The notes under the pieces were generated by a model, which saw only the letters and a list, made by a program, of their open reading frames with translations, did not search any database and had not been told where the DNA came from. Below are positions 789-20,112 of a DNA stretch of 61,774 bases, in pieces (positions within the stretch are counted from its first letter, which is position 1; the number at the start of each line of letters is the position of its first letter). The DNA is taken from assembly GCA_046537875.1 (NCBI GenBank), contig JBKHJZ010000003.1, positions 1 through 61,774 on the forward strand. The letters are read 5' to 3'. This DNA is from Acidimicrobiia bacterium. Its GTDB lineage: Bacteria; Actinomycetota; Acidimicrobiia; Acidimicrobiales; VFJN01. Made by a program: the position numbers and the translations under genes.

Positions 789-891
789 CCGTGAGCATGT
801 TGTCGGACGACCCCGGCGGGCGCACGGCAGGGCGGCCGGGGCGGCGGCCGGCCCGGCGCCGCGTCCGGGGCGCGGCGTAGCGTGCGGGTTC

Positions 892-1716
892 ATGGAGGCG
901 ATGCACGCGACGACGCTGGAGGTCGGTGCCGAGGGGCCGCGGGGCTGGATCACCCTGGCGCGGCCCGAGAAGCTGAACCCGCTCGGTACCGCCACCCTCG
1001 GCGAGCTCGTGGACGCGGCCCGCTGGTGCGATGCGCGCCCCGATCTGAAGGTGGTGGTCGTGTCGGGGCAGGGGCGGGCGTTCTCGGCCGGTGCCGACCT
1101 GGCCGCCTTCGGCGGGACGGGGGACACGGCCGGCGCCGGAGGAGACGCGGCAGGCGCCGCGGGGCCGCCGGCCGACCCCCGGGAGGCGGCGGATGCCGGA
1201 CGCCGTGCGGCCGACGCCCTGGAGGCGATGCGGGCCGTGACCGTGGCCCGCATCCACGGCCACTGCGTGGGCGGCGCCGTGGTGCTCGCCGCGGCGTGCG
1301 ACCTGCGGGTTGCGGCCGCCTCGACCCGGTTCGCCATCCCCGAGGTGGACCTCGGGATCCCGCTCGCCTGGGGCGGGATCCCCCGGCTGGTGCGCGAGGT
1401 CGGGCCGGCGCTCACGAAGGAGCTGGTGATGACGTGCCGGCCGTTCGGGGCCGACGAGGCGAAGGCCGCCGGATTCCTCAACCGGGTGGTGCCGGACGGA
1501 GACCTCGACCGGGAGGTCGACGCCCTCGTGGCCCAGCTCGTCGGCAAGCCGGCCCTGGCGCTGGACGTCACCAAGCGCCACGTCGGAGCCGTGGCCGACG
1601 GCACGGTCGCCACCGCTCGCGCCTTCGGGGATGCCGACACGCTGGTCACCGCCCTGCACGACCCGGAGTCGAGGGCGGTGGCGGCCCGCTACCTCGAGGG
1701 TCGCCGGCGCCGCTGA
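892..1716 (+). CDS. Enoyl-CoA hydratase/isomerase (crotonase) family protein
   Basis: From the ATG at 892: MEAMHATTLEVGAEGPRGWITLARPEKLNPL...VVVVSGQGRAFSAGADL...IHGHCVGGAVVLAAACDLRV. These are crotonase-fold oxyanion-hole motifs. The track ORF start at 712 is probably too far upstream. Confidence 0.85.
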   Translation: MEAMHATTLEVGAEGPRGWITLARPEKLNPLGTATLGELVDAARWCDARPDLKVVVVSGQGRAFSAGADLAAFGGTGDTAGAGGDAAGAAGPPADPREAADAGRRAADALEAMRAVTVARIHGHCVGGAVVLAAACDLRVAAASTRFAIPEVDLGIPLAWGGIPRLVREVGPALTKELVMTCRPFGADEAKAAGFLNRVVPDGDLDREVDALVAQLVGKPALALDVTKRHVGAVADGTVATARAFGDADTLVTALHDPESRAVAARYLEGRRRR

Positions 1717-1817: not shown

Positions 1818-2261
1818 TCAACCGTCGGTGCCGGCCGGCGCGAAGTCCTCGGGCGAGTACGGCCGCTTCTCCACGAGCACCAGCCAGTTCCCGGAGTTGT
1901 CGCGCGCCACCGCCTCGATGCCGTAGGGCCGGTCGGAGGGCTCCTGGAGGAACGTGACCCCCTTGGCCTCCAGCTCCTCGTAGGTCTTGTGGCAGTCGTC
2001 CACCTCCAGGCCGACCGCGTTGAGCGACCCCTTGTCGAGGAGCTGCCGCATGCTCTCTGCGGCCTCCGGGTCGAGCGGCGGCCCGGGCACCATCAGCGTG
2101 AGCTGGAGCTCGGGCTGGTTGGGGTGCGAGACGGTGACCCACCGGAAGTCACCCATCGTGATGTCGTCGTGTGGCTCGAAGCCGAGGGTGTTGACGTAGA
2201 AGTCCTTCGCCGCGTCCTGGTCGGACACGTAGATGGTCACGAGCGAGACGTTGGTGATCAT
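1818..2261 (-). CDS. VOC (glyoxalase/bleomycin-resistance/dioxygenase) family protein
   Basis: 147 aa. MITNVSLVTIYVSDQDAAKDFYVNTLGFEPHDD... and ...YEELEAKGVTFLQEPSDRPYGIEAVARDNSGNWLVLVE are typical paired beta-alpha-beta-beta-beta VOC modules. Confidence 0.8.
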   Translation of the reverse strand: MITNVSLVTIYVSDQDAAKDFYVNTLGFEPHDDITMGDFRWVTVSHPNQPELQLTLMVPGPPLDPEAAESMRQLLDKGSLNAVGLEVDDCHKTYEELEAKGVTFLQEPSDRPYGIEAVARDNSGNWLVLVEKRPYSPEDFAPAGTDG

Positions 2262-2301: not shown

Positions 2302-2844
2302 TCAGGGCGCCGTCACCGTAGGGACGGCCGCCGGCCGGCGCTTCTCCGGAATTGCGGAGCCGGCCGGGGCGCCGGACACGTTCACGCCGTTCATGAACAG
2401 GAAGCAGCCGGGGATGCGGGGCCCGCCGTCGGCGGCCCAGCGGTCCCGGTACTGCGAGGGCGACTCGCCGACGAGCTCGCGGAACCGCGAGGAGAACGAG
2501 CCGAGGCTGGCGAAGCCGACGACCATGCACACCTCGGTCACGGTCAGGTTGGCCGCCCGCAGCAGGTCCTGGGCACGCTCGATGCGCCGGCGGGTCAGGT
2601 AGCGCATCGGGGTCTCGCCGTAGGTGGCGGCGAAGCACCGCACGAAGTGGTACTTCGACACGGCTGCGGCCTCGGCCAGCGCATCGAGGTCGAGTCGTTC
2701 CGGGTAGTGCCGGTCGGCCAGGTCGTGGGCCCGGCGGAGGTGGGGGACCAGCGCGGCGGGAACCACCGGGCGGCCGGAGATCCCGGTCGGCTCGTCGCCT
2801 CCGCGGGGCGTGAGCGGCCCGGTCTGGCTGGTTGTCCCTGTCAT
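2302..2844 (-). CDS. AraC-family HTH transcriptional regulator (short form)
   Basis: AraC double-HTH signature: LDLDALAEAAAVSKYHFVRCFAATYGETPMRYLTRRRIERAQDLLRAANLTVTEVCMVVGFASLGSFSSRFRELVGESPSQYR. The ATG at 2844-2842 overlaps the stop of the upstream gene by 4 nt. The longer track ORF (to 3405) is Arg-rich and looks spurious. Confidence 0.8.
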   Translation of the reverse strand: MTGTTSQTGPLTPRGGDEPTGISGRPVVPAALVPHLRRAHDLADRHYPERLDLDALAEAAAVSKYHFVRCFAATYGETPMRYLTRRRIERAQDLLRAANLTVTEVCMVVGFASLGSFSSRFRELVGESPSQYRDRWAADGGPRIPGCFLFMNGVNVSGAPAGSAIPEKRRPAAVPTVTAP

Positions 2845-3662
2845 GGCGTGTGCTCCACGGGGTCCAGTCTGGTGATCCGGTAGCGGAAGAACTCGCCCTC
2901 GTCCCAGCGGTCGGTGCCGTGGAACCATCCGACCCTGCCGGCGGCGGGGACGGCGAGGCCCCCGAACGTCCCGTAGCCGGTGACGTCGATGCCGAACGGG
3001 CGGAGCGACCAGGTGCCGGTCTCGTCGGGATCGCCCCAGCGCGGGAAGGTCACCGCCGTCAGGCGGCCGGTGCGGTCGATCGTGTAGCTGACGTCGAGGT
3101 CGACGCCGTCGACGTGGTAGCCGGCGGTCAGGTGCGTGTCGTCCTCGGCGGACCACCCGACACCGAAGCGGGGCAGCAGCGCGGTGGGAACCCAGATGCC
3201 CTCTGCGCCGCCCCGGGCCGCGGCGCTGCGGGCCACGTCGGTCCCCGACGACTGCATCACCGGCATCAGACCGAACAGCCGCCAGTCGAGCCCGCCCTCG
3301 CCGTCGACGTAGTGGTCGGATCCGCTGAGCACCCCGGCCACCCGGGCGGTCCACACGAAGCCGGCCAGGGGAGCGAGGACCTCGCGGGCCCGGAACGGCA
3401 GCCACCGCGACCCCAGCTTCAACCGGCCCCGCATGGTGATCCTCGCGGCCCGGGCGCGCGGCATGCCCGGGGCGATGGCGAGCCGGAGGTGGCGCCGGAC
3501 GGGCGCGGGCAGCCCGTCGAGGTCGGGCTCGTGGAACCTGCCCCGTGCCGGCGGCAGGGCGAGCCGCTCGCCGAGGGCGGCGATGTCGGGTGGGGCCGTC
3601 CGGCTCATCTCCGCCATGGTCGCTGGTGGACGCGTCCGCACCAGTAGACCGCGGCGGGTCAT
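2841..3662 (-). CDS. Conserved hypothetical protein (resembles the DUF6544 family)
   Basis: 273 aa with ordinary protein-like composition (LPAPVRRHLRLAI..., WTARVAGVLSGSDHYVDGEG..., FPRWGDPDETGTWSLRPFG). It is 4-nt coupled to the AraC gene downstream. The family name is from memory only. Confidence 0.6.
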   Translation of the reverse strand: MTRRGLLVRTRPPATMAEMSRTAPPDIAALGERLALPPARGRFHEPDLDGLPAPVRRHLRLAIAPGMPRARAARITMRGRLKLGSRWLPFRAREVLAPLAGFVWTARVAGVLSGSDHYVDGEGGLDWRLFGLMPVMQSSGTDVARSAAARGGAEGIWVPTALLPRFGVGWSAEDDTHLTAGYHVDGVDLDVSYTIDRTGRLTAVTFPRWGDPDETGTWSLRPFGIDVTGYGTFGGLAVPAAGRVGWFHGTDRWDEGEFFRYRITRLDPVEHTP

Positions 3663-3725
3663 CCCGGCGATGTCGCGCCCGGGCGGGTACCGAGCCGTGA
3701 TGCCGGCTCCGCAGCGCTCAGGACA

Positions 3726-4958
3726 TCAGGTTGCGTCGAACGACTCGACGATCGGCAGCAGGAGCTCGGTGTCGTCCCAGCCGTCCTCGGGCGGGGTGGT
3801 GCCCTTGCCGGCGACGAGGCCGTCCGAGGGGTACTTCCCGAACAGGTTGGGGTCGGCGACCGGCGGACCCGGATCCTTCACGTACGTGCCGTTGCGCACC
3901 ACGACCAGGTCGAGGCTGGGGATCACGTAGATGTACTGGCCGTCGTGGCCCCGGGCCGAGAACGTGTCGGGCAGCTCCTCGTCCTCGCCGAGCCACCACT
4001 GGTAGCCGTAGTTGCCCTCTGAGGCAGCCGCAGGCTCGAGCGACTCCTCGACCCACGCCTCGGGCACCACCTGCTCGTCGCCCCAGGTTCCCCGGCGCTC
4101 GTAGAGCAGGCCGAACCGGGCGAAGCCACGGCTGGTCGTGTCGAGGCAGCAGTAGGTGAGCGTGTGCCCGCGGGCGTCGCGCCACCAGTCGGCCTGGTCC
4201 ATGCCGAGCGGCTCGAAGATCTCCTGGCGGGCGTACTCGTGGACGGGCATCCCCGTCGACTGCTCGAGCACCCCCGACAGCAGCATCGTGTCGCCGCTGG
4301 AGTAGCTCCACTCCGATCCCGGCTCGTTCGCCGCGGGCCGGCCCGACGCGTACGCGAGCTGATCCGGCTGGAAGAGCACCATCTCGATGATGTCCGACTC
4401 GGCGACGGCCTCCGGGCTGTAGTTCTCCACCCAGTCGAGCCCCGACGACATCTGCAGCACGTCGCGCAGCGTGATCGCCTGGCGGTCGGTGCCCTCCCAC
4501 TCGGGGAACCAGGTGGTCATCGGCTCGTCGACGCCGGGGATCAGGCCGTCCTCGATGGCGATGCCCACCAGCGCGCTGGTGAAGCTCTTCGCCATCGACC
4601 AGCTCGCCGCCCACGAGCCCTCGTCGGCGCCCTCGTCGTACCACTCGGCGACGATCTCCCCGTCGTGCACGACCACCACGCCCTGTGTGTTCATGCCGTC
4701 GGCGAAGGCGTAGTCGCGGGCACCCTCGAGCGTCGCCGGGTCCATCCCGTGCTCCTCGGGCGACGCCACCTCCCACTCGTCGGCGGGCATCGGGGCCGGA
4801 TTCGTGTCCTGCCGGGCGGTGACCTGGCCGTCGCCCGCCTCGCCTTCGCTCGTCGCGCGGCCGGGCCCGTCGCCGCCGCCGTTGCTGCTGCAGGCCGTCG
4901 CCATCGTCAGGAGGGCCACGGCACAGGCCGGACGCCACCGTCGTCCCGGTCGTCTCAT
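3726..4958 (-). CDS. Serine hydrolase, beta-lactamase/transpeptidase-like fold, probable lipoprotein
   Basis: Signal peptide plus lipobox-like ALLTMATAC. SxxK motif in WSMAKSFTSALVGIAIEDG. HGMDPATLEGARDYA is typical of beta-lactamase-related N-termini. Confidence 0.8.
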   Translation of the reverse strand: MRRPGRRWRPACAVALLTMATACSSNGGGDGPGRATSEGEAGDGQVTARQDTNPAPMPADEWEVASPEEHGMDPATLEGARDYAFADGMNTQGVVVVHDGEIVAEWYDEGADEGSWAASWSMAKSFTSALVGIAIEDGLIPGVDEPMTTWFPEWEGTDRQAITLRDVLQMSSGLDWVENYSPEAVAESDIIEMVLFQPDQLAYASGRPAANEPGSEWSYSSGDTMLLSGVLEQSTGMPVHEYARQEIFEPLGMDQADWWRDARGHTLTYCCLDTTSRGFARFGLLYERRGTWGDEQVVPEAWVEESLEPAAASEGNYGYQWWLGEDEELPDTFSARGHDGQYIYVIPSLDLVVVRNGTYVKDPGPPVADPNLFGKYPSDGLVAGKGTTPPEDGWDDTELLLPIVESFDAT

Positions 4959-5035
4959 GCGCCCATCTCACCACATTCTGCGAAGTTCCAACCGTCGTTA
5001 CCGCACGTAGCGTCGTGGCCCGGCGTCGTTCCGAC

Positions 5036-5064
5036 TTGACAGGCGAACTGACGTTCGCTAGCAT
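5036..5064 (+). promoter_or_regulatory. Candidate sigma-70-type promoter: TTGACA-N17-TAGCAT
   Basis: TTGACA at 5036-5041, an exact 17-nt spacer, then TAGCAT (TANNNT) at 5059-5064. An in-frame ATG at 5072 lies about 7 nt after the -10, consistent with a leaderless mRNA for the HNH gene. Confidence 0.4.
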
Positions 5065-6844
5065 GACAGATATGCCGACGGACCAGCCGCTCCACTCCCA
5101 GGCCGTGCCGGTCGGCAACGCAGGGATCGGGCCCGGCGGCGTGACCGCCCGGCAGAGCGCCGCCGGTGCCTCCCCTCCCACCGATCACGCCCCCCTCCGG
5201 GCCGGCGCCGTGGTGAAGACGCGGGCCGACGAGGTGGAGTCGCAGCTCTGCGAGCTCGCGGCGCTCATCAACGCGGCGAACGCCGAGCTGATGGCGCTGC
5301 TGGCCGAGCTCGACCGTCTGGGGGGATGGCAGGGCACGGGCATCCGGTCCATCGGCCACTGGGCCGCCATCCACCTCGGCATCGACGCCCGCACCGCGGG
5401 CCGCCAGACCGTCGCCGGGCACCGGCTGTCCGAGCTGCCTGCCATCGCTGCCGCGTGCGCCGCGGGCGAGATCGGGTGGGCCAAGGTCCGGGTGCTCGCC
5501 GAGGTCGCCGAGCCCGCCACCGACGAGCGGTGGCTCGGCCTGGCCCGCGAGATGTCGGTCACCCAACTCACACGCTGTGCCCGCGCCTACCGCCGGGCGT
5601 GCGACACCGACGACCGAGAGCGCCTCGACCGCGCCCGCGAGCGGCGTGGCATCTGGCTCTTCGACGAACCCGACGGGCTCGTGCGCATCACCGGCCTGCT
5701 CGAGCCCGACGACGCCGCGGTCCTCCGGGCCGCCCTCGCGGCGCAGGAGGAGCTCCAGTGGCGTGACCGGGCCGCCGCCGAGGCGGCCGAGACCGACGCA
5801 TCCGATACCGCCGATACCACCGTCGCCGCCGCCGCCGACGAAGACACCGAGCGCACCGCCGCTGCGGCGACTCGCGGGACTGACGGCGACACTGAGTCCG
5901 TCGCCAGCGATGGCGGCGACACCGAGTCCGCCACCGAGTTCGCCGCGACCGAGTCGCCCGCCAGCGAGGCCAGCGACACCGAGACCGATGACCCGCCGGC
6001 GGATGACGGAGCGGCTGACCGAGACAGCGCCGACCGCCATGAGGCCGAACGGGCGCACCAGGCGGCTCGTGCCAGCGAGGTCGATCCCACCCTCGCCGCC
6101 CGCGACCCGGCCGCCACCCGCCGCGCCGACGCCCTGGTCGCCCTCGCCCGGGTCGGCCTCGCCGCCGAAGACGCGCCCGACGACGGCGACGACCTCACCC
6201 ACGTCGTCCTCCACGCCGACGTCAGCGTGTTCGAGCCCGGCAACCAGGTCGCCCGCAGCCACCTGGCCCACGGGCCGGCGGTCTCCACGCACACGGCCCA
6301 GCGTCTCGCCTGTGCTCCCGTCGTCCAGGCGCTCCTCGAGCGCAAGGGCGTCCCGCTCGCGATGGGTCGCTCCCAACGCCTCGTCAACCGCGCCCAGCGG
6401 CGCGCCCTCCGGGCGCGCGACGGCGGCTGCGCCTTCCCCGGCTGCGGCGCGACCCGGCATCTCCACGCGCATCACGTCGTCCACTGGACGCAGGGCGGTG
6501 CGACGGACGTGGAGAACCTGGTGCTCCTGTGCAGGCACCATCACCGCCTCCTCCACGAGGGCGGCTACGCGATCCGGCTCACCGGCGGGCGTCCCGTGTT
6601 CCACCGGCCCGATGGCACACCCATCCGCCCGCCCCGAGTCCGCGACCGGCGGTGCGACGGACACCCGCCGGTGCCCGCGCTCCGCCAGCGCACCCGCACC
6701 GCTGGCCACCGGGTCACCCAACACACCCCCCGGGCCCGCAGCGGCGGGGCTCCCCACTGGTCGCCCCAGCGTGCGATCGACGCGCTCACCAGCGGACCCG
6801 GGCCTCCACCCAGGCCGTCACGCGCTGGACGACCGACCAGGTGA
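5063..6844 (+). CDS. HNH endonuclease with N-terminal DUF222-like domain (actinobacterial 13E12-type)
   Basis: N-terminal ...LINAANAELMALLAELDRLGGWQGTGIRSIGHWAAIHLGID... and C-terminal HNH motif RDGGCAFPGCGATRHLHAHHVVHWTQGGATDVENLVLLCRHHHRLLHEGG. Candidate starts are ATG 5063 or ATG 5072 (leaderless option). The 3' end overlaps the convergent gene by about 59 nt. Confidence 0.85.
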   Translation: MTDMPTDQPLHSQAVPVGNAGIGPGGVTARQSAAGASPPTDHAPLRAGAVVKTRADEVESQLCELAALINAANAELMALLAELDRLGGWQGTGIRSIGHWAAIHLGIDARTAGRQTVAGHRLSELPAIAAACAAGEIGWAKVRVLAEVAEPATDERWLGLAREMSVTQLTRCARAYRRACDTDDRERLDRARERRGIWLFDEPDGLVRITGLLEPDDAAVLRAALAAQEELQWRDRAAAEAAETDASDTADTTVAAAADEDTERTAAAATRGTDGDTESVASDGGDTESATEFAATESPASEASDTETDDPPADDGAADRDSADRHEAERAHQAARASEVDPTLAARDPAATRRADALVALARVGLAAEDAPDDGDDLTHVVLHADVSVFEPGNQVARSHLAHGPAVSTHTAQRLACAPVVQALLERKGVPLAMGRSQRLVNRAQRRALRARDGGCAFPGCGATRHLHAHHVVHWTQGGATDVENLVLLCRHHHRLLHEGGYAIRLTGGRPVFHRPDGTPIRPPRVRDRRCDGHPPVPALRQRTRTAGHRVTQHTPRARSGGAPHWSPQRAIDALTSGPGPPPRPSRAGRPTR

Positions 6845-9338
6845 CGATCCCCGCAGCGAGGGCCACGGCGACCGCCGGCAGCGGCCCGTGGGCGAGCAGC
6901 AGCGGGTAGACGTCGGAGTGCGTCAGGTAGATGTAGAGCGACGCGCCGGCGACGACACCGAGCAGCCGGTTGACCGGCCGGACCAGGGCGACGGTCGGGA
7001 CCCAGGTGAGCGCCAGCAGTCCGGCCGCCACCAGCATGTTTCGTTCGGGCTGCTCGAAGTACCCGGGCACGGCGGCCACGACGAGCGCCGAGAGCAGCAC
7101 TCGCTGACGGGGGGTCGAGGCTCGTGCCGCCACCCAGCCGGCCGCGAAGAGCCAGAAGATCTCGTGGGGGCGGAAGATGGAGCGCTCGAGCTCCGGCAGC
7201 CCCAGGAGGTCGAAGCGCACGGCGAGCCCGGCGGCCAGCAGCGCCAGGGCGAACCCGTACGCATGGCGCCGCTCGGTGCGCCGAACGGCGGGCACCGCGA
7301 GGACGACCCCGAGCACCACCAGGATCTGCACGAGCGCCTCGACGAACCAGAAGCGCCACGGCGTTCCGGCACCGCCGAGCTGGCCGTTGACCAGCAGCGC
7401 GTGCACCAGCCCGAAGTCGTCGCGGGCGGCGGCGACGATCCCGATCACGCACATGCTCGGGATCGCGATGCGGGCGGTGCTCCGGGCGATGTGCCCGGCG
7501 CCCAGCTGGAACCGGGCGAAGTTGAAGCCGGCGATCCCGAGCAGCAGGTGCGCGCCGCCGGGCAGGTAGAAGAGCCCGGCGTGCGTGCCCACCACGAACA
7601 CGATCGCCAGGGCGCGCAGCACCACGTTGGTCTCGACGCGAGTGACGACACGCGACCGCGGGCGCCGGCGGGCAGCCAGGTCGCGCACCGGCGTCACGTG
7701 CCAGTCCGGTGGCAGGTGCCCGAGGGCCCGTTCGAGCCGGATCGACGTCTCCACGTACGACAGCGAGTCGCCGCCCAGGCTCACGAACGTGTCGTCGTCC
7801 TCGATGTCGGGACGGCCCAGCACCTCGGCGAGCACCGCGTGAACGGGGGAGCGGTCGGATACCGCCGTACCCGCCCGGACCCCGGCCTCGGCGCCCGCCT
7901 GCACGGCGCCGGCCTCCACGGCGCCGGCCTCCGCCTCGCGGGCCAGCTGAGCGACCACGACGTAGTCCGGCTTGCCGTTCGCCAGCCGCGGCAGCTCCGC
8001 CAGCTCGCAGACGCGCACCTGGGCCCGCGGCAGGCCGATGTGCTGCGCGATCAGTCGCCGCACGCGCTCGGTGCCGTGGCCGTGCTCGATGCCCACGATC
8101 AGCTCGCGGTCGTCGCCCGTGCACATGCTCGGCACGCCGTGCTCGTCGAGCAGGCGCTCCACCCGATCGAGGTCGATCCGCAGCCCGAACAGCTTCAGGA
8201 ACCGGCTGCGCCGGCCGACGATCTCGTAGAGGCCGTCACTCGTCCGCCGGGCGATGTCGCCGGTGCGGAGGGCGTCGATCGTGGCGCCGGCCGCCAGGTC
8301 GGACACCCGCTCGGCATAGCCGAGCATGACGTTGGGCCCCCGGTAGACCAGCTCGCCCTCCACCTGCCCGTCCCCGTTCCCGGCCGGGCCGTCGAGCGGC
8401 TCGATCGTGAACGATCCACCGGGGACCGGGATCCCGATGGCCCCCGGGTGCCGGCGCGCCAGCTCGGGTGGCAGGTACGCCATGCGGGCGGTGGCCTCCG
8501 TCTGGCCGTACATGACGTAGAAGCGCCAGCCATCGCGCTCGGCGAGCTGGGCGTAGCGCCGCACCCTGTCGGGGGCGAGCTTCCCACCGGCCTGGGTCAC
8601 GTAGCGGAGCCCGGGCAGGCGCATCTCGTCGAAGCCGATGCGGTCGAGGAGCTCGAACGTGTGGGTGACCCCGGCGAAGCTGGTGCCGCCGTGCGCGCGG
8701 AAGCTGTCCCAGAAGCACGGGTCGACCACCGAGTTGGAGGTCAGGATCAGGCCGGCACCCCGCAGCAGGTGGCTGTTGATCACCGACAGGCCGTAGCAGT
8801 AGGCCATCGGCAGCGACGTGACGGCCCGGTCGCTCTCCCGGATGTCGAGGTACTGGGCGATCGACTCGGCGTTCGCCTGCAGGTTCCGGTGCGAGAGCCG
8901 GACCAGCTTCGACGCACCGGTCGATCCCGAGGTGGTGAGCAGCAGAGCCAGGTCGGGGTGGAGCCGGTGGGGGGAGGCCGGCCGCCGGATCGAGAGCTCC
9001 CAGCCTGCGCCCGTGCCCGACAGCACGACGTCGGGGTCGTACGTCCGCACCAGCGACCGGAGGTGCGACCGGTTGCCGTCCGGGACGAGCAGCACCGGGT
9101 GCCTCGCGTGCAGGGCCGCCAGGTAGGTGACCACCGGCTCGGGGTCGTTCGCCGCGGCGATCAGCACCAGCTTCCGTCCGGTGCCCAGGCGGGCGGCCGT
9201 GTCCCGAACCCGCGCCGCCAGCTCCTCGTAGGAGATGTGCATCCCCCGGTGGATGATGGCGCGGCGGTCCCCGTGGGCATCCAGGTTGTCGGCGAACGAG
9301 GCGGCGGGCCGGTCCAGCAGGGGCGCGGTGGCAGACAT
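6786..9338 (-). CDS. Tri-domain protein: AMP-dependent adenylation domain + carrier (PCP/ACP-like) domain + C-terminal polytopic membrane acyltransferase-3-like domain
   Basis: Adenylation motifs: LLLTTSGSTGASKLV, YGQTEAT, GELVYRGPNVMLGY, RTGDIARR, GRRSRFLKLFGLRIDL, NGKPDY. Ppant site FVSLGGDSLSYVE (Ser at about aa 525, nt about 7764-7766). About 285 aa of hydrophobic helices follow, starting VETNVVLRALAIVFVVGTHAG, which is like AT3 TM1 with a conserved His. Confidence 0.85.
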   Translation of the reverse strand: MSATAPLLDRPAASFADNLDAHGDRRAIIHRGMHISYEELAARVRDTAARLGTGRKLVLIAAANDPEPVVTYLAALHARHPVLLVPDGNRSHLRSLVRTYDPDVVLSGTGAGWELSIRRPASPHRLHPDLALLLTTSGSTGASKLVRLSHRNLQANAESIAQYLDIRESDRAVTSLPMAYCYGLSVINSHLLRGAGLILTSNSVVDPCFWDSFRAHGGTSFAGVTHTFELLDRIGFDEMRLPGLRYVTQAGGKLAPDRVRRYAQLAERDGWRFYVMYGQTEATARMAYLPPELARRHPGAIGIPVPGGSFTIEPLDGPAGNGDGQVEGELVYRGPNVMLGYAERVSDLAAGATIDALRTGDIARRTSDGLYEIVGRRSRFLKLFGLRIDLDRVERLLDEHGVPSMCTGDDRELIVGIEHGHGTERVRRLIAQHIGLPRAQVRVCELAELPRLANGKPDYVVVAQLAREAEAGAVEAGAVQAGAEAGVRAGTAVSDRSPVHAVLAEVLGRPDIEDDDTFVSLGGDSLSYVETSIRLERALGHLPPDWHVTPVRDLAARRRPRSRVVTRVETNVVLRALAIVFVVGTHAGLFYLPGGAHLLLGIAGFNFARFQLGAGHIARSTARIAIPSMCVIGIVAAARDDFGLVHALLVNGQLGGAGTPWRFWFVEALVQILVVLGVVLAVPAVRRTERRHAYGFALALLAAGLAVRFDLLGLPELERSIFRPHEIFWLFAAGWVAARASTPRQRVLLSALVVAAVPGYFEQPERNMLVAAGLLALTWVPTVALVRPVNRLLGVVAGASLYIYLTHSDVYPLLLAHGPLPAVAVALAAGIVTWSVVQRVTAWVEARVRW

Positions 9339-9469
9339 CGGCCGGCACGTTATTAGGGTTGCCTAACAGCTGTCGAGAGGGTCAGCTTTCACTCGTCTCC
9401 TCGCACCGGGGTCGATGTGACGGGCGTCGCATGGCAGGGTTGGAGCCGCACTCAGGGGGGAGGTCCACG

Positions 9470-10741
9470 ATGACGGTTCGCCAGCGGGACGCCGAGGAGC
9501 TGGGGCTTCCGGCAGCGGATCCGGAGTCGGTGGGCATCGATCCGGTCCGGATCGCCCGCATCGACGACCACCTGCGCCGGCGCTACCTGGAGCCGGGCAA
9601 GATCGCCGGCTGCCAGGTGCTCGTGGCCCGCCACGGCCGGCTGGTGCACGCCTCGACCATGGGGGTGCGGGACCGGGAGCGTGGCGTGCCCGTCACCCCG
9701 GACACGATCTGGCGGCTCTACTCCATGACCAAGCCGATCACCGGCGTGGCCCTTCTCACCCTCTACGAGCGGGCCCTGTTCCGCCTCAGCGATCCAGTCG
9801 AGCGGTTCATCCCCGAGCTCGGCGGGCTGAAGGTGAGAGAGAGGCTCGACGACGGCACCCGCCGGCTGGTCGAACCCGAGCGGCCCATGTCGGTGCGCGA
9901 CGCCCTGATGCACATGACCGGCATCGGCCTCGGCCCGCCCGGTGCCCGTCTCGACCCGTCCACCATCGGCACGCGCCCGCCCGGGAGCCGGCTCGGCACG
10001 GGGGCGACCCTCCAGACGCTGGTCGAGCGCCTCGGCGAGGAGCCCCTCCGCTTCCATCCCGGCACCCGCTGGCTGTACTCGTGGTCGACAGACGTGTGCG
10101 CCCGCCTCGTCGAGGTGATCTCGGGTCGGCGTTTCGACGACTACCTGCGGGACACGATCTTCGAGCCGCTCGGCATGGTGGACACCGGCTTCCACGTGCC
10201 CGAGTCCGGCGCGGATCGCTTCGCCGCCCTCTACGGGCGCGACGCCCACAAGCGGCTGGCCCTGCTCGACGATCCGGCCACGAGCCGGCTGCTCCGCCCG
10301 GTGTCGTTCCTGTCCGGGGGCGGGGGGCTGGTGGGGACGGCCGCCGACTACCTGCGGTTCGCCCAGATGCTGCTCGGCGGCGGAGCGCTCGACGGCATCA
10401 GGATCCTCGCCCCGCGCACCGTGGAGCTGATGGCCAGCAACCACCTCCCCGGGGGTGGCGACCTGCGCAGCGTCGCCCTGCCCGGCGGCTACGGCGAGGT
10501 CGGCTTCGACGGGATGGGCTTCGGGCTCACCGTGGCCGTCAGCAAGGGCCCGGTGGCCACGGGGACGCTCGGCCCCGCCGGCCTGTTCCTGTGGGGCGGC
10601 GCCGCGTCCACCCTGTTCTGGGTCGACCCGGTCGAGGACCTCGTCGTGGTCTTCATGACCCAGCTCATCCCGTCGGGCACGTTCGACTTCCGGGGCCAGC
10701 TCACGTCGCTCGCCTACGCCGCCATCGTCGACCGCGCGTAG
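9470..10741 (+). CDS. Serine hydrolase, class C beta-lactamase/esterase-like
   Basis: The ATG at 9470 is preceded by GGGGGGAGG. SxxK motif in RLYSMTKPITGVALLTLYE. C-terminal ...GGAASTLFWVDPVEDLVVVFMTQL is typical of the family. Confidence 0.85.
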   Translation: MTVRQRDAEELGLPAADPESVGIDPVRIARIDDHLRRRYLEPGKIAGCQVLVARHGRLVHASTMGVRDRERGVPVTPDTIWRLYSMTKPITGVALLTLYERALFRLSDPVERFIPELGGLKVRERLDDGTRRLVEPERPMSVRDALMHMTGIGLGPPGARLDPSTIGTRPPGSRLGTGATLQTLVERLGEEPLRFHPGTRWLYSWSTDVCARLVEVISGRRFDDYLRDTIFEPLGMVDTGFHVPESGADRFAALYGRDAHKRLALLDDPATSRLLRPVSFLSGGGGLVGTAADYLRFAQMLLGGGALDGIRILAPRTVELMASNHLPGGGDLRSVALPGGYGEVGFDGMGFGLTVAVSKGPVATGTLGPAGLFLWGGAASTLFWVDPVEDLVVVFMTQLIPSGTFDFRGQLTSLAYAAIVDRA

Positions 10742-10810
10742 GATTGACCCGCAGGTCAGCCCACACATCAGCCCGACGGCCCCGCGCCGGCACACCGAGG
10801 GGGAGCATCC

Positions 10811-11959
10811 ATGGAGACCCGAGCCGCCATCCTCTGGGAGCCCAACACCGAGTGGAGCGTCGAGGACATCGAGCTCGACGCACCGAAGGCGGGCGAGGTC
10901 AAGGTCCAGCTCGCCGCCTCGGGCCTGTGCCACTCCGACGAGCACCTCCTCACCGGCGACATGGTGCTCGACCCCGAGATGGCCGCCATGCTGGGCGTGC
11001 AGCAGTTCCCGGTGATCGGCGGCCACGAGGGCGCGGGCACGGTCGTCGAGGCGGGACCGGGGGTCTCGACGCTGAAGGAGGGCGACCCGGTGTCGCTCGG
11101 CTTCATCCCCTCGTGCGGCCGGTGCCCGTCGTGCGCCCGCGGCTGGCAGCACCTGTGCGATCTGGGCGCGCTGCTCCTCGCCGGGCGCCAGGTGTCCGAC
11201 ATGACCGCCCGCCACCACGCCAAGGACGGGCGTGACCTCGGGCTCATGTGCTGCCTCGGCACGTTCTCGCCGGTCACGGTGGTGAACGAGGCGAGCTGCA
11301 TCAAGCTCGACGACGACATCCCGCTCGACCGGGCGGCGCTGGTCGGGTGCGGGGTGACCACCGGGTGGGGCGCGGCCACCAACGCGGCCGACGTGCAGCC
11401 CGGCGAGACGGTCGTGGTCATCGGCCTCGGCGGTGTGGGCATGAACGCGCTCCAGGGCGCGTCGATGGCCGGCGCCCGCTACGTCGTGGGCGTCGACCCG
11501 GTGGAGTGGAAGCGCGAGCAGGCGCCCACCTTCGGCGCCACGCACACCGCGCCCAGCATCGAGGAGGCGACCGCTCTCGTGGCCGACCTCACGTGGGGCG
11601 CGAACGCCGACAAGGCGATCCTCACCACCGGCGTCGCGGAGGGCAGCCTCATCGCCCCGATGCTGGGCCTCGTCGCCAAGGGTGGCCGGGCCGTGGTGAC
11701 GGCGGTCGCCCCCGTCAGCCAGATGGACGTGCAGCTCAACCTGTTCGAGCTGACGCTGCAGCGCAAGGAGCTGGTGGGCTGCATCTTCGGCAACGCCAAC
11801 CCGCGCCGCGACATCCCCCGGCTGCTGCGCCTCTACAAGGAGGGCAAGCTCAAGCTCGACGAGCTCGTCACCAGGAACTACTCGCTCGACGAGGTCAACC
11901 AGGGCTACCAGGACATGCGCGACGGCAGGAACATCCGTGGCGTGATCGACTACGCCTGA
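10811..11959 (+). CDS. Zinc-type alcohol dehydrogenase of the NDMA-dependent (nicotinoprotein) kind typically linked to mycofactocin
   Basis: METRAAILWEPNTEWSVEDIELDAPKAGEVKVQLAASGLCHSDEHLLTG... and structural-Zn cysteines CGRCPSCARGWQHLC. It lies directly upstream of mftA. Confidence 0.85.
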   Translation: METRAAILWEPNTEWSVEDIELDAPKAGEVKVQLAASGLCHSDEHLLTGDMVLDPEMAAMLGVQQFPVIGGHEGAGTVVEAGPGVSTLKEGDPVSLGFIPSCGRCPSCARGWQHLCDLGALLLAGRQVSDMTARHHAKDGRDLGLMCCLGTFSPVTVVNEASCIKLDDDIPLDRAALVGCGVTTGWGAATNAADVQPGETVVVIGLGGVGMNALQGASMAGARYVVGVDPVEWKREQAPTFGATHTAPSIEEATALVADLTWGANADKAILTTGVAEGSLIAPMLGLVAKGGRAVVTAVAPVSQMDVQLNLFELTLQRKELVGCIFGNANPRRDIPRLLRLYKEGKLKLDELVTRNYSLDEVNQGYQDMRDGRNIRGVIDYA

Positions 11960-11982
11960 TCGCTCGTCCGAAAGGCATCGCC

Positions 11983-12153
11983 GTGGCACTCACCAGCGAA
12001 CCGACGCACCAGCACGACACGCGGTCCGAGTCCGACGCGCCCGAGAGGCCCGAGGCGGCCGGGCTGCAGGAGTCGCACCACGAGGAGCCGCTCGCCGAGG
12101 ACGAGGTGCTCCTCGAGGAGATCTCGATCGACGGGATGTGCGGGGTCTACTGA
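11983..12153 (+). CDS. mftA: Mycofactocin precursor peptide MftA
   Basis: The reading frame ends ...AEDEVLLEEISIDGMCGVY*, the canonical MftA C-terminus (IDGMCGVY). It lies immediately upstream of mftB and mftC. The GTG at 11983 follows GAAAGG. The true start is uncertain, because no in-frame ATG exists except in the core. Confidence 0.85.
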   Translation: MALTSEPTHQHDTRSESDAPERPEAAGLQESHHEEPLAEDEVLLEEISIDGMCGVY

Positions 12154-12428
12154 GCCCGGTGCCCCTCGACGCCCCGGCCCCCCTCGAGCTGCACCCCGAC
12201 GTGGCGCTGCGCCCCGAGCCGTTCGGGGCGCTGGCGTACCACTACGGCACCCGCCGGCTGACGTTCCTGCGCTCGCCCGACCTGGTGCGGCTGGTCGAGG
12301 ATCTCGCCCGGCACCCCTCGGTCGACGACGCCCTGGCCGCGTCGCCGATCGAGGAGCGCCGCTGGCCGGCGTTCCGCACCGCCGTCGCCTCGCTGGCCGA
12401 GTCCGGCTTCCTTCGGGCCCGTGACTAG
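12138..12428 (+). CDS. mftB: Mycofactocin biosynthesis chaperone MftB (RRE-type peptide-binding protein)
   Basis: ...LHPDVALRPEPFGALAYHYGTRRLTFLRSPDLVRLVEDL... matches the MftB pattern, and it sits between mftA and mftC. Start is GTG 12138 (overlaps the mftA end) or GTG 12159. Confidence 0.85.
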   Translation: MRGLLSPVPLDAPAPLELHPDVALRPEPFGALAYHYGTRRLTFLRSPDLVRLVEDLARHPSVDDALAASPIEERRWPAFRTAVASLAESGFLRARD

Positions 12429-13551
12429 CCCGCTGGTCGACGAGCTGAAGCGGGGGCTCGACGCCCCCATCTGCCTGACGTGGGAGCTCACGTACGGGTG
12501 CAACCTGGCGTGCGTCCACTGCCTGTCGTCGTCGGGACGGCGCGATCCCCGTGAGCTGTCGACCGCCGAGGCCATGGCGGTGATCGACGAGCTCCACGCC
12601 ATGCAGGTCTTCTACGTCAACATCGGGGGCGGCGAGCCCACCATCCGGGGCGACTTCTACGACTTGGTCGACCACGCGGTGGCCCGGGGCGTGGGAGTGA
12701 AGTTCTCGACCAACGGCTCGACCATCGACGCGACCAGGGCGCAGCGGCTGGTGGGCAGCGACTACGTCGACGTCCAGGTGTCGATCGACGGGGCGACCGC
12801 GGCCACCAACGACCCGATCCGGGGTGAGGGCTCCTACGCGGCGGCGCGGCGGGCCATGGACCACCTGGCCGCGGCCGGGTTCGGCCGGTTCAAGATCAGC
12901 GTGGTGGTCACCCGCACCAACGTGGGCGAGCTCGACGCGTTCGAGGCGCTCGCCGCGCACTACGGGGCCCAGCTGCGCCTGACCCGCCTGCGCCCCTCCG
13001 GTCGCGGGGCCGACGTCTGGCACGACCTCCACCTGCTCCCCGACCAGCAGGTCCACCTCCACCGCTGGCTGGTCGACCGGCCGGACGTGCTCACCGGCGA
13101 CTCGTTCTTCCACCTCAACGCGTTGGGCGAGTCGCTGCCCGGCCTCAACCTGTGCGGCGCCGGGCGGGTGGTCTGCCTGATCGACCCGGTCGGCGACGTC
13201 TACGCCTGCCCGTTCGTGCTCCACCCCGAGTTCCGGGCCGGCAGCGTGCGGGATCCGGGCGGGTTCACCCACGTGTGGCGGAGCAGCGACCTGTTCCGCT
13301 CGCTGCGCGAGCCGCAGTCGGCCGGCGCCTGCGCGAGCTGCGGCAGCTACGACGCCTGCCAGGGCGGGTGCATGGCCGCCAAGTTCTTCACCGGGCTGCC
13401 GCTGGACGCCCCCGATCCCGAGTGCGTGCACGGCCACGGCGAGCGCGCGCTGGCCGGGGTCGCGGCCGGGTCCGCGGTGCCCCGGGGACCCGATCACGGC
13501 GCCCGCCGGGGGGCGGTTCCGGTGCGGCTCGGCCGCACCCGGCGCAATTGA
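12421..13551 (+). CDS. mftC: Mycofactocin radical SAM maturase MftC (SPASM domain)
   Basis: CLTWELTYGCNLACVHCLSS (CxxxCxxC), GGEPTIRGDF, and the C-terminal Cys-rich SPASM region CGAGRVVCLIDPVGDVYACPF...CASCGSYDACQGGC. Confidence 0.95.
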   Translation: MTSPLVDELKRGLDAPICLTWELTYGCNLACVHCLSSSGRRDPRELSTAEAMAVIDELHAMQVFYVNIGGGEPTIRGDFYDLVDHAVARGVGVKFSTNGSTIDATRAQRLVGSDYVDVQVSIDGATAATNDPIRGEGSYAAARRAMDHLAAAGFGRFKISVVVTRTNVGELDAFEALAAHYGAQLRLTRLRPSGRGADVWHDLHLLPDQQVHLHRWLVDRPDVLTGDSFFHLNALGESLPGLNLCGAGRVVCLIDPVGDVYACPFVLHPEFRAGSVRDPGGFTHVWRSSDLFRSLREPQSAGACASCGSYDACQGGCMAAKFFTGLPLDAPDPECVHGHGERALAGVAAGSAVPRGPDHGARRGAVPVRLGRTRRN

Positions 13552-13588
13552 CCGCGTCCCCCGCCGGACTGCGACACTCATCCACCTG

Positions 13589-20108: not shown

Positions 20109-20112
20109 GGCG

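What the first reader, a model, noticed from the sequence alone, without database searches (positions are those of the whole stretch)
6786..9338. Single-polypeptide adenylation + carrier + membrane acyltransferase (A-T-AT3): a self-contained envelope acylation or aminoacylation machine?
Seen in sequence: one uninterrupted 850-aa ORF contains a complete ANL adenylation domain, with motifs TSGSTGASK, YGQTE, TGD, GRxxxxxKxxGxRI and NGKxD. A short EAGAV-repeat linker follows, then a phosphopantetheine attachment site (LGGDSL). The last part is about 285 aa of polytopic membrane domain whose first helix (LRALAIVFVVGTHAG) resembles the catalytic His region of acyltransferase-3 (OafA/NolL-type) proteins. 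Established knowledge: AT3 proteins O-acylate extracytoplasmic glycans. The Dlt system uses separate proteins (adenylating DltA, carrier DltC, membrane acyltransferase DltB) to D-alanylate teichoic acids. Inference: this fusion could be a one-protein analogue that activates an amino or fatty acid, tethers it, and hands it across the membrane to a cell-envelope acceptor. I do not know of a characterised example. Two beta-lactamase-fold serine hydrolases sit nearby (3726-4958, and 9470-10741 divergent). This is the fold used by D-Ala-specific peptidases and esterases, but the linkage is only positional.
Basis: partly seen in the sequence, partly recalled or inferred. Interest (0 to 1): 0.65.

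Follow-up and report, generated by a model that had tools for sequence, protein, structure and literature searches.

The report
Iron-regulated adenylation–carrier–AT3 membrane acyltransferase fusion
One gene encodes an enzyme that activates an acid, holds it on a built-in carrier arm and is fused to a membrane acyltransferase; it belongs to a large, unstudied actinobacterial family that appears to be switched on by iron starvation and usually sits beside a ferric-iron importer.

Summary
It has a complete ANL adenylation domain, a PCP-type carrier domain (Ser525) and a compact ~10-helix AT3 domain with the invariant R575-x10-H586 hallmark.

It is not an assembly artefact. An independent unitig spans all the junctions. 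At least ~600 hits in species-representative genomes of Actinomycetota encode full-length relatives, and this AT3 subtype is almost always fused to A-T.

The Dlt/D-alanine reading is not supported. The residue that binds the amino group (GrsA D235) is an invariant Cys, DltA is not among the nearest relatives, and neither beta-lactamase-fold neighbour recurs next to relatives. The divergent one more likely belongs to an adjacent mycofactocin block.

New findings:
- 42 of 74 related loci carry an FbpABC-type ferric-iron importer next to the gene, in varying orientations.
- 44 of 74 have a 19-bp IdeR/DtxR iron box abutting a leaderless-type promoter, about 160-fold denser than elsewhere in the loci.
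- The window copy keeps only the proximal 14 bp (TTAGG-N4-CCTAA, 9353-9366), as do all 8 closest relatives.

Best reading: a carrier-dependent AT3 acyl translocase induced by low iron. Substrate and acceptor are unknown. No paper describing it was found.

The parts
6786..9338 (-). Whole ORF: 850 aa A-T-AT3 protein (ATG at 9338, stop at 6786-6788)
   Evidence: Full-length homologues at 53-72% identity.
7929..9293 (-). ANL/NRPS-type adenylation domain (residues ~16-470) with motifs A3 TSGSTGASK (8907-8933), A5 YGQTE, A7 TGD, A8, and A10 Lys456 (7971-7973). Deduced 10-residue code: C181 Y182 S185 A222 T248 A250 M276 A284 R285 K456.
   Evidence: Pfam 1e-43. NCBIfam AA-adenyl-dom aligns 1-401 of 409 positions but below cut-off. 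PDB alignments. All code residues are invariant in alignment A1.
7863..7937 (-). Low-complexity Ala/Gly/Glu-rich linker (residues ~468-492)
   Evidence: Sequence. pLDDT below 50 for residues 474-495 in the full-length model. Length-variable in homologues.
7671..7850 (-). Carrier (PCP-type thiolation) domain, residues ~497-556. The phosphopantetheine attachment site Ser525 lies in GGDSL (7764-7766).
   Evidence: PF00550 at 34.4 bits, above the 20.8 cut-off. G523 D524 S525 L526 are invariant.
6789..7643 (-). AT3-type polytopic membrane domain (residues 566-850, ~10 TM helices). Carries R575 (7614-7616) and H586 (7581-7583) in TM1, GFNFARF in TM2, R623/P627, W664/E667, and S800-Y804-H807.
   Evidence: PF01757 spans profile 6-322 of 326. 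22 of 25 homologues match, best E 1.3e-13. Hydropathy. AF2 model pLDDT 92.8, pTM 0.89. Invariant residues.
9353..9366 (-). 14-bp palindromic operator TTAGGCAACCCTAA. It equals the promoter-proximal 14 bp of the 19-bp IdeR/DtxR iron box found at the same place in relatives.
   Evidence: Unique in the 61.8-kb window. Best-scoring place in the window for an iron-box matrix, though weak: 7 bits against 26-37 for the sites the matrix was built from. The same motif lies upstream in all 8 closest relatives: at -26/-28 in five and further upstream of the called start in three. In the other loci it occurs only upstream of this gene or its fbp operon.
9347..9352 (-). Candidate -10 hexamer TAACGT (TANNNT), 8 nt before the ATG, implying a leaderless or near-leaderless mRNA
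   Evidence: Read. The same arrangement (box, then TANNNT, then 6-8 nt to the start codon) occurs in 17 of 20 relatives examined. The strict sigma-70 consensus scan found nothing.

Best explanation
The gene encodes a self-loading, carrier-protein-dependent AT3 membrane acyltransferase that belongs to the iron-starvation response.

Proposed steps:
1. The cytoplasmic adenylation domain activates a carboxylic acid with ATP. The acid is very probably not an alpha-amino acid. It may carry an anionic or oxygen-rich group that meets the invariant Arg285.
2. The acyl group is thioesterified to the phosphopantetheine arm on Ser525 of the built-in carrier domain.
3. The carrier domain ends only ~10 residues before TM1. 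It presents the acyl-pantetheine arm to the cytoplasmic mouth of the AT3 domain, in place of the acyl-CoA that ordinary AT3 enzymes use.
4. The TM1 pair R575/H586 and other invariant residues pass the acyl group through the membrane. It goes to an extracytoplasmic acceptor: an envelope glycan or lipid, a small molecule, or water.
5. Transcription starts at a leaderless-type promoter overlapped by an IdeR/DtxR-type operator, so the gene is repressed when iron is plentiful.
6. In most relatives the gene sits beside, or in an operon with, an FbpABC ferric-iron ABC importer. The acylation therefore most likely serves siderophore-independent Fe(III) capture or uptake at the cell surface.

Shown here: domain content, motifs, conservation, gene linkage, and the presence and position of the operator.
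Inferred: the direction of acyl flow, the regulator, and the link to iron uptake.
Unknown: the acid and the acceptor.

The window's own copy lacks the Fbp neighbour and keeps only a 14-bp version of the operator.
For: Architecture and catalytic residues.

This AT3 subtype is almost always fused to A-T or T:
- A C-terminal-domain-only search of 1.84 billion representatives found 294 clusters at E<=1e-30.
- The best hits are mostly ~850 aa with the domain at the C terminus.
- Six of the eight shorter or unusual hits scanned still carry PP-binding.

Not amino-acid type:
- HMMER alignments to LgrA and VinN place Cys181 at GrsA D235 and Arg285 at VinN R331.
- The review PMC11253843 gives the roles of D235, K330 and R331.

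Gene linkage:
- An FbpA-like lipoprotein (PDB 7w3w, E 6e-71), a fused FbpB-type permease and an ATPase lie within 4 genes in 42, 27 and 12 of 74 loci.
- They occur in divergent, co-directional and flanking arrangements across several actinobacterial groups.

Regulation:
- The iron-box consensus is taken from PMC1382209.
- With <=5 mismatches there are 59 sites in 36 kb around the gene or operon starts, against 15 in 1.46 Mb elsewhere. That is 1.64 against 0.010 per kb.
- 44 of 74 loci have at least one site, including loci with no Fbp neighbour.
- The box abuts TANNNT and a start codon 6-8 nt downstream in 17 of 20 loci.
- Window and closest relatives carry TTAGG-N4-C[CT]TAA in the same place.

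The positive-rich segment RRRPRSR before TM1 fits a cytoplasmic N-side.
Against: - There is no experimental datum of any kind.
- The Pfam AT3 score of the window protein itself is below the gathering threshold.
- The AT3 RXXR motif is not conserved. Only R623 is conserved, and the window has RxxxR.
- No solved AT3 structure was found for a fold test. There was only one unnamed BFVD hit.
- AlphaFold gives no confident A/T/AT3 arrangement (pTM 0.53).
- The window copy and its 8 nearest relatives have no Fbp neighbour. Their 14-bp site scores far below full iron boxes. It could bind a different regulator or only one repressor dimer.
- 30 of 74 loci had no box at <=5 mismatches. Several of these have weaker boxes on inspection or boxes upstream of the operon.
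- Fbp adjacency could partly reflect shared ancestry, although the orientation varies.
- The inference from Arg285 rests on alignment, not structure.
Confidence: 0.55

Rival explanations
1. Dlt-like one-protein machine. The A domain activates D-alanine or another amino acid, and the AT3 domain esterifies it onto teichoic-acid-like wall polymers to change surface charge. A nearby beta-lactamase-fold esterase would act as partner.
For: The same logic as DltA/DltC/DltB: adenylation, carrier and a polytopic membrane acyltransferase with a catalytic His. Beta-lactamase-fold ORFs are present on both sides.
Against: - The D235-equivalent residue is an invariant Cys.
- DltA is absent from the 55 best sequence matches and 50 best fold matches in the PDB.
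- The neighbouring hydrolases are not conserved in any related locus.
- No wall-polymer genes are linked.
- The family-wide iron box and Fbp linkage are unexplained by this model.
Confidence: 0.06
2. Fatty-acyl remodelling. The A domain is a fatty-acyl-AMP/ACP ligase and the AT3 domain acylates a membrane glycolipid or lipoglycan. This would be an actinobacterial analogue of Aas, or of the IdeR-regulated MbtM/MbtL/MbtK lipidation of mycobactin, changing the envelope under iron stress.
For: NCBIfam hits include long-chain fatty-acid-CoA ligases and the Aas-type acyl-ACP-phospholipid acyltransferase, all far below cut-off. FadD10 is among the fold neighbours. D235 is absent. Iron regulation is compatible.
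Against: - The best matches are to small-acid ligases (oxalate, malonate, o-succinylbenzoate) and type II NRPS A domains, not FAALs.
- The carrier has the PCP-type GGDSL motif.
- An invariant Arg285 in the pocket is not expected for an aliphatic chain.
- The Fbp importer handles unchelated Fe(III), not lipophilic siderophores.
Confidence: 0.13
3. Acylation or export of a small molecule. The enzyme O-acylates a secreted or periplasm-side metabolite (a siderophore or its precursor, or an antibiotic sugar, as AT3 enzymes of Streptomyces do). Alternatively it releases the activated acid outside by hydrolysis, so acting as an ATP-driven exporter of an iron-chelating acid.
For: AT3 enzymes of Actinobacteria acylate macrolides and antitumour drugs (review). 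Iron regulation. The A domain resembles oxalate/malonate ligases and carries an invariant Arg.
Against: No biosynthetic gene cluster is linked in any of 74 loci. The family is spread over lineages with very different secondary metabolism. No precedent for AT3-mediated hydrolytic export was found here.
Confidence: 0.16
4. The membrane domain is only an anchor or a transporter. The AT3-like part would be catalytically irrelevant or act in uptake, as has been suggested from general knowledge for the AT3 part of VanT. The A-T didomain would then work with an unlinked partner.
For: The Pfam score is below threshold and RXXR is not conserved. The review notes an AT3-racemase fusion, VanT. No confident T-AT3 docking was predicted.
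Against: - R575, H586 and about 20 further membrane-domain residues are invariant across 43 sequences at only 43-72% identity. This is far more than an anchor needs.
- No condensation, thioesterase or reductase domain or partner gene exists to unload the carrier.
- This AT3 subtype is hardly ever found without the carrier.
Confidence: 0.07

Closest known systems
DltABCD D-alanylation system of Firmicutes (from general knowledge; papers listed)
   Same: Adenylation enzyme, then phosphopantetheinyl carrier, then a polytopic membrane acyltransferase with a catalytic His that moves the acyl group to the outer face.
   Different: Dlt uses separate proteins. Its membrane component is an MBOAT (DltB), not an AT3. 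The DltA substrate is D-Ala and the Asp that binds its amino group is present. DltD and DltX finish the transfer. Here there is one polypeptide, an AT3 domain, no Asp, no partner hydrolase and an iron-type operator.
AT3 (Acyl_transf_3, PF01757) O-acyltransferases: Oac, OafA/OafB, OatA, WecH, TmaT, SucT, macrolide acyltransferases
   Same: A ~10-helix domain, R/K-x10-H in TM1, N-terminus in the cytoplasm, and predicted trans-membrane acyl transfer.
   Different: Known members are stand-alone or fused C-terminally to SGNH (or a racemase in VanT) and take acyl-CoA (review PMC9558356). Here the domain is fused N-terminally to its own adenylation and carrier domains, the RXXR motif proposed to bind CoA is not conserved, and the gene is iron-regulated.
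AlmEFG glycine modification of Vibrio cholerae lipid A (AlmE is mentioned in PMC11253843; the rest from general knowledge)
   Same: A DltA-like adenylase plus a carrier protein feeding a membrane-associated acyltransferase that decorates an envelope lipid.
   Different: Three proteins. The transferase belongs to the lysophospholipid-acyltransferase superfamily and acts on the cytoplasmic side. The substrate is glycine.
Aas / acyl-[ACP]-phospholipid O-acyltransferase fusions (NCBIfam NF006386, NF005291, NF005959)
   Same: A membrane protein that fuses an AMP-forming ligase with an acyltransferase so that activation and transfer are coupled (weak hits).
   Different: Aas uses a PlsC-type acyltransferase and free ACP, and it repairs lysophospholipids on the inner leaflet. 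The similarity found here is confined to the AMP-binding domain.
FbpABC/HitABC/SfuABC ferric-iron importers and the IdeR/DtxR/DmdR regulon
   Same: The relatives' neighbours are bona fide FbpA-type binding proteins. The upstream 19-mers match the DtxR consensus.
   Different: No acyltransferase has been described as part of an Fbp system as far as I know. The S. coelicolor DmdR1 regulon paper consulted does not mention such a gene.

Membership tests
Acyltransferase-3 (AT3, PF01757/IPR002656) | Significant match to the family profile over its whole length | tested here: met
   The window protein matches at E 5.4e-5 over profile positions 6-322 of 326, but at 22.8 bits against a gathering score of 31. 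22 of 25 homologues match, best E 1.3e-13. Most of the 120 best homologues carry a precomputed PF01757 hit.
Acyltransferase-3 (AT3, PF01757/IPR002656) | R/K-x10-H motif in the first transmembrane helix | tested here: met
   R575-ALAIVFVVGT-H586. Both residues are invariant in 25 and in 43 sequences. The motif definition is from PMC9558356.
Acyltransferase-3 (AT3, PF01757/IPR002656) | RXXR motif in the first cytoplasmic loop | tested here: not met
   The window has R619-STA-R623 (RxxxR). In the family only R623 and P627 are conserved.
Acyltransferase-3 (AT3, PF01757/IPR002656) | About ten transmembrane helices, N-terminus inside | tested here: met
   Hydropathy segments. The AF2 model has ~10 long helices at pLDDT 92.8. 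An Arg-rich segment precedes TM1, and the cytoplasmic A-T domains lie N-terminal.
Acyltransferase-3 (AT3, PF01757/IPR002656) | Fold shared with a structurally characterised AT3 | tested here: inconclusive
   Foldseek against the PDB gave a best E of 0.4 and TM below 0.2. BFVD gave one unnamed 637-aa hit at E 1.9e-4, TMq 0.56. hhalign against phage Sf6 Oac as a single sequence found nothing.
Acyltransferase-3 (AT3, PF01757/IPR002656) | Acyl-CoA as donor and a sugar hydroxyl as acceptor | not testable with these tools
   This needs biochemistry. The fusion to A-T argues for an acyl-S-pantetheinyl carrier donor instead.
ANL superfamily / NRPS-type adenylation domain | Core motifs A3 (P-loop), A5, A7, A8 and the A10 lysine | tested here: met
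   TSGSTGASK, YGQTE, TGD, GRxxxxxKxxGxRI and NGKPD are all invariant. PF00501 matches at 1e-43.
ANL superfamily / NRPS-type adenylation domain | Asp at GrsA position 235, which binds the substrate amino group (amino-acid-activating members) | tested here: not met
   Cys181 aligns to the FD Asp of LgrA and to D230 of VinN. It is invariant. The role of D235 is given in PMC11253843.
Phosphopantetheine-binding carrier domain (PF00550) | Profile match above threshold and a GG(D/H)S(L/I) serine | tested here: met
   34.4 bits against a cut-off of 20.8. G523 D524 S525 L526 are invariant.
Dlt D-alanylation system | DltA-type D-Ala-specific ligase, MBOAT DltB, and DltD/DltX partners | tested here: not met
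   There is no D235. DltA is not among the PDB sequence matches at E<=1e-10 or the top 50 fold matches. The membrane domain is AT3, not MBOAT. No conserved partner hydrolase was found.
IdeR/DtxR/DmdR iron regulon | A 19-bp box TTAGGTTAG(G/C)CTAACCTAA in the promoter region | tested here: inconclusive
   Relatives meet it: 44 of 74 loci at <=5 mismatches, ~160-fold enriched at the start. The window has only the proximal 14 bp, with 6 mismatches to the 19-mer and 7 bits against 26-37. Binding by the regulator was not tested.

The most novel reading that the evidence does not exclude
The family may be a previously unrecognised component of siderophore-independent iron acquisition in Actinomycetota.

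In this reading it is an ATP-driven acyl translocase. Under iron starvation it carries an iron-binding carboxylate across the membrane on a pantetheine arm. It then either esterifies the acid onto the cell envelope or releases it outside. This would create a surface-bound or local chelator pool that hands Fe(III) to the FbpA lipoprotein.

It would also be the first AT3 enzyme shown to take its acyl group from a carrier protein rather than from acyl-CoA.
Probability: 0.2. Interest if true: 0.85.

Novelty: new variant of a known kind. Interest (0 to 1): 0.68.

Why it matters
AT3 proteins are thought to draw on acyl-CoA, and how the acyl group enters and crosses the membrane domain is an open question. 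A natural fusion that tethers the donor to the AT3 domain gives a defined, stoichiometric system for studying it by structure, crosslinking and mutagenesis.

The family is large: about 600 or more hits in species-representative genomes of Actinomycetota, and 294 clusters at 50% identity with E<=1e-30. NCBI annotates it only as 'AMP-binding protein'.

Its tight association with iron boxes and FbpABC importers gives a concrete, cheap hypothesis to test in Streptomyces, Arthrobacter or Rhodococcus. It may explain how Gram-positive actinobacteria feed an Fbp-type 'free ferric iron' transporter without an outer-membrane receptor.

Tried and rejected
- **Plus-strand reading of the given interval.** It gives a meaningless Arg/Gly/Pro-rich translation, so the minus strand was used.
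- **Profile comparison with phage Sf6 Oac.** hhalign against a single sequence found no relevant alignment. This is uninformative, not negative.
- **Full-length AlphaFold model.** The domains are confident but pTM is 0.53, so nothing can be said about carrier docking. The fold search on it returned only generic ANL enzymes.
- **Beta-lactamase-fold neighbours as partners.** Rejected, because they are singletons in the neighbourhood clustering and absent next to the closest relatives.
- **Other recurrent neighbours.** PLP enzyme, racemase, oxidoreductases, MetH and others occur only as within-genus synteny.
- **Substrate identity.**
  - The 10-residue code C-Y-S-A-T-A-M-A-R-K matches no known code.
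  - A resemblance to the DhbE code (Y236, S240, recalled from general knowledge) was rejected. The aryl-acid form of the A5 motif is absent and DhbE/EntE are not close.
- **Strict sigma-70 promoter and terminator scan.** It found nothing.
- **Literature.** Six searches for the fusion and a reading of the S. coelicolor DmdR1 regulon paper found no description of it.
- **The ABC importer in the window.** No tblastn hit in the window for the representatives of clusters 1-3 (binding protein, permease, ATPase) used as queries.

Full report
**1. What is in the sequence**

- The interval 6786-9338 holds one uninterrupted ORF of 850 codons, on the minus strand (ATG at 9338). The plus-strand translation is meaningless.
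- Third-position GC is 0.95, as in the other real genes of this ~75% GC window.
- Pfam finds three domains:
  - AMP-binding, residues 16-341, E 1e-43.
  - PP-binding, 499-540, 34.4 bits, above its cut-off.
  - Acyl_transf_3, 573-836. This match is weak (22.8 bits against a gathering score of 31, E 5.4e-5) but spans profile positions 6-322 of 326.
So are the catalytic A10 lysine (K456) and the pantetheine serine (S525).
- Hydropathy analysis and a confident AlphaFold model of residues 560-850 (pLDDT 92.8, pTM 0.89) show about ten membrane helices.
- An Arg-rich stretch (RRRPRSR) precedes TM1. This fits a cytoplasmic A-T part and the usual N-in topology of AT3 domains.

**2. The fusion is real and widespread**

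- In an independent metagenome run, one unitig covers 7110-8971 (residues ~122-743) without a single difference, at even depth. This crosses both domain junctions. The window comes from microbial-mat or hypersaline-lake samples.
- The 120 best database relatives are all 820-980 aa, 52-72% identical over 94-100% of the query. Most have all three Pfam domains. They come from Streptomyces, Micromonospora, Arthrobacter, Kocuria and Acidimicrobiales MAGs, some on complete chromosomes.
All 80 kept loci are Actinomycetota.
- Searching 1.84 billion representatives with the membrane domain alone gave 1309 clusters at E<=1e-3 and 294 at E<=1e-30. The best are mostly ~850 aa with the domain at the C terminus.
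- Six of the eight shorter or unusual hits scanned still begin with a carrier domain. This AT3 subtype is therefore essentially always joined to A-T.
- In an alignment of 25 relatives, 22 match PF01757, best E 1.3e-13.
- Sources name these proteins only 'AMP-binding protein', 'acyl-CoA synthetase' or similar. No NCBIfam model reaches its cut-off.

**3. Is the third domain an AT3 acyltransferase?**

- The AT3 review (PMC9558356) gives R/K-x10-H in TM1 and RXXR in the first cytoplasmic loop as the essential motifs. Both are proposed to bind acyl-CoA. The review states that no structure was known.
- Here R575 and H586 are exactly eleven positions apart in TM1 and are invariant in 43 sequences.
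- About twenty further membrane residues are also invariant, although identity is only 43-72%. They include N606, F610, W664, R687, W729, F731, W735, S800, Y804 and H807.
- RXXR is not kept. The window has RxxxR and only R623 and P627 are conserved. That would make sense if the donor is a pantetheine arm without the nucleotide part of CoA, but this is my inference.
- A fold test was not possible. Foldseek found nothing in the PDB and one unnamed 637-aa viral protein in BFVD (E 1.9e-4). hhalign against the single sequence of phage Sf6 Oac gave nothing.
- I file the domain as AT3 on the sequence profile, the topology and the TM1 motif. One defining motif is not met.

**4. The adenylation domain is not DltA-like**

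- The best PDB sequence matches are oxalate-CoA ligase (2e-24), the beta-amino-acid enzyme VinN, LgrA, PltF, malonyl-CoA ligase and MenE. DltA is not among the 55 matches at E<=1e-10, nor among the 50 best fold matches of the full-length model.
- In the HMMER alignments the Asp that holds the substrate amino group (GrsA D235, VinN D230) corresponds to Cys181, within an invariant YCYGLSV. Non-amino-acid A domains typically lose this Asp (PMC11253843).
- The rest of the deduced code is Y182, S185, A222, T248, A250, M276, A284, R285 and K456. All are invariant, so the whole family probably uses one substrate.
- R285 aligns with VinN R331, a key residue of the loop that shapes VinN's pocket for 3-methylaspartate. 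This hints at an anionic or polar group on the substrate, but it rests on alignment only.
- The aryl-acid form of the A5 motif is absent. I cannot name the acid.

**5. Surroundings in the window**

- The divergent 'beta-lactamase' (9431-10741) is closest to the methyl acetate hydrolase AcmB (below cut-off).
- It is followed by an NDMA-dependent alcohol dehydrogenase, mftA (C terminus IDGMCGVY), mftB, mftC, two mycofactocin-system OYE oxidoreductases, a mycofactocin-associated EtfA, a FixC-like protein and a mycofactocin-coupled SDR. It more likely belongs to that block.
- On the other side a DUF222-HNH ORF converges on the gene and overlaps its 3' end by 59 nt. A second PF00144 protein follows.
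- Neither hydrolase recurs next to any relative.

**6. What recurs next to relatives**

- I called genes in 80 loci by GC3 and clustered them with blastp.
- The only recurrent neighbours are three ABC-importer genes:
  - A lipoprotein binding protein, in 42 of 74 loci within four genes.
  - A fused double permease, in 27 loci.
  - An ATPase, in 12 loci.
- The binding protein is a clear FbpA/HitA/SfuA ferric-iron binding protein (PDB 7w3w, E 6e-71). The permease and ATPase are of the FbpB/PhnU2 and FbpC/PotA types.
- The arrangement varies:
  - Divergent in most Streptomyces and Micromonospora loci.
  - Co-directional fbpA-fbpB-(fbpC)-gene in Phytoactinopolyspora, Arthrobacter agilis, Actinophytocola, Marmoricola, Lentzea and Saccharothrix.
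  - Downstream in Spirilliplanes, Nocardioides and Frankiaceae.
  - Flanked by two copies of the gene in one Micromonospora.
- Adjacency kept through such rearrangements argues for a functional link.
- The window (no tblastn hit for the importer representatives used) and its nearest relatives lack this neighbour.

**7. An iron-box operator**

- I scanned the same loci (1.74 Mb) for the DtxR/IdeR consensus TTAGGTTAG(G/C)CTAACCTAA (consensus confirmed in PMC1382209).
- At <=4 mismatches there were 46 hits. Nearly all lie 26-33 nt or 108-172 nt upstream of this gene's start, or upstream of the fbp-gene operon.
- At <=5 mismatches there are 59 sites in the 36 kb around the starts and 15 in the remaining 1.46 Mb. 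That is 1.64 against 0.010 per kb. 44 of 74 loci have at least one site.
- Loci without an Fbp neighbour (for example Arthrobacter and Pseudarthrobacter) have the box too, so it serves this gene.
- Several loci counted as negative show weaker boxes by eye.
- In 17 of 20 loci the proximal box is directly followed or overlapped by a TANNNT hexamer, with a start codon 6-8 nt further on. This indicates a leaderless-type promoter that a bound repressor would occlude.
- In the window the best-scoring place for an iron-box matrix in all 61.8 kb is just upstream of the ATG, but it is weak: 7 bits against 26-37.
- The window site is TTAGGCAACCCTAA at 9366-9353, followed by TAACGT and 8 nt.
- This 14-mer is unique in the window. 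It equals the proximal 14 bp of the 19-mer.
- It recurs as TTAGG-N4-C[CT]TAA in all eight closest relatives. In five it lies at -26/-28. In L083 an in-frame ATG would place it there too.
- In all fetched loci it occurs only upstream of this gene or its operon.
- The family therefore carries a conserved operator of the iron-regulator type. Whether the short form in the window's subclade still binds IdeR is open.

**8. Mechanism proposed**

- Shown here: three domains in the order that allows activation, tethering and trans-membrane transfer; intact catalytic residues; no other unloading domain or partner; a conserved operator over a leaderless-type promoter; linkage to FbpABC.
- Inferred:
  - The acyl-pantetheine arm replaces acyl-CoA in the AT3 cavity. 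The carrier ends ~10 residues before TM1.
  - The acyl group goes to an extracytoplasmic acceptor.
  - Expression rises at low iron.
  - The product helps Fe(III) capture or delivery to FbpA.
- Unknown: the acid and the acceptor.
- AlphaFold does not fix the domain arrangement (pTM 0.53).

**9. Comparison with known systems and novelty**

- It works like DltA/C/B or AlmE/F/G in logic, and like Aas in fusing ligase to acyltransferase.
- It is not a member of those systems. The membrane domain belongs to a different family, the specificity residue differs, and the partners are absent.
- It is an AT3 protein of a new architecture and probably a new donor type. Six literature searches found no description. 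The AT3 review lists only acyl-CoA donors and SGNH or racemase fusions. The S. coelicolor DmdR1 regulon study does not mention such a gene.
- I rate it a new variant of a known kind. The gene in this window is an ordinary member of a large uncharacterised family. The family-level link to iron is the new and testable point.

Noticed in passing
window 10811-22444 (+): A mycofactocin locus lies right next to the target. It comprises an NDMA-dependent alcohol dehydrogenase (10811-11959), mftA (~12060-12153, ending IDGMCGVY), mftB (12138-12428), mftC (12421-13551), mycofactocin-system OYE_1 and OYE_2 oxidoreductases (13589-15541, 15538-17538), an mft-associated EtfA (17535-18500), a FixC-like protein (18487-19794) and a mycofactocin-coupled SDR (21614-22444).
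   Followed up: partly
window 9431-10741 (+): The divergent 'beta-lactamase' is closest to the methyl acetate hydrolase AcmB (167.6 bits, below the 550 cut-off). It abuts the mycofactocin and alcohol-dehydrogenase block, so it is more likely an esterase of that metabolism than a partner of the A-T-AT3 gene.
   Followed up: partly
window 5015-6844 (+): A DUF222 + HNH endonuclease ORF, a type I recall as often repeated or mobile in actinobacterial genomes, converges on the target and overlaps its 3' end by 59 nt.
   Followed up: no
window 9358: In a second metagenome run (X2) the only difference inside the 14-bp operator is G>A at 9358. This falls in the N4 spacer and leaves both TTAGG/CCTAA arms intact.
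   Followed up: no
P0133 (1121 aa, metagenomic protein): A relative in which carrier and AT3 domains are followed by a C-terminal PhoD-like phosphatase domain. This could be an extracytoplasmic partner domain analogous to SGNH in AT3-SGNH proteins, or a gene-calling artefact.
   Followed up: no
L043 (Micromonospora sp.), about 3650-12427: Two copies of the A-T-AT3 gene flank an fbpA-fbpB-fbpC operon, each preceded by an iron box.
   Followed up: partly
L081 7911-7950: A relative at 58% identity has two tandem 16-bp palindromes, ATTAGGTATGCCTAAT and ATTAGGCATACCTAAT, 26 bp apart upstream of the gene. It sits next to an Eco57I/MmeI-type restriction-modification gene pair.
   Followed up: no
window 1818-2261 (-), 2841-3662 (-), 712-1716 (+): A glyoxalase/bleomycin-resistance-family protein, a DUF6544/DUF6920 protein and an enoyl-CoA hydratase lie upstream of the second PF00144 protein. 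None recurs near relatives.
   Followed up: no
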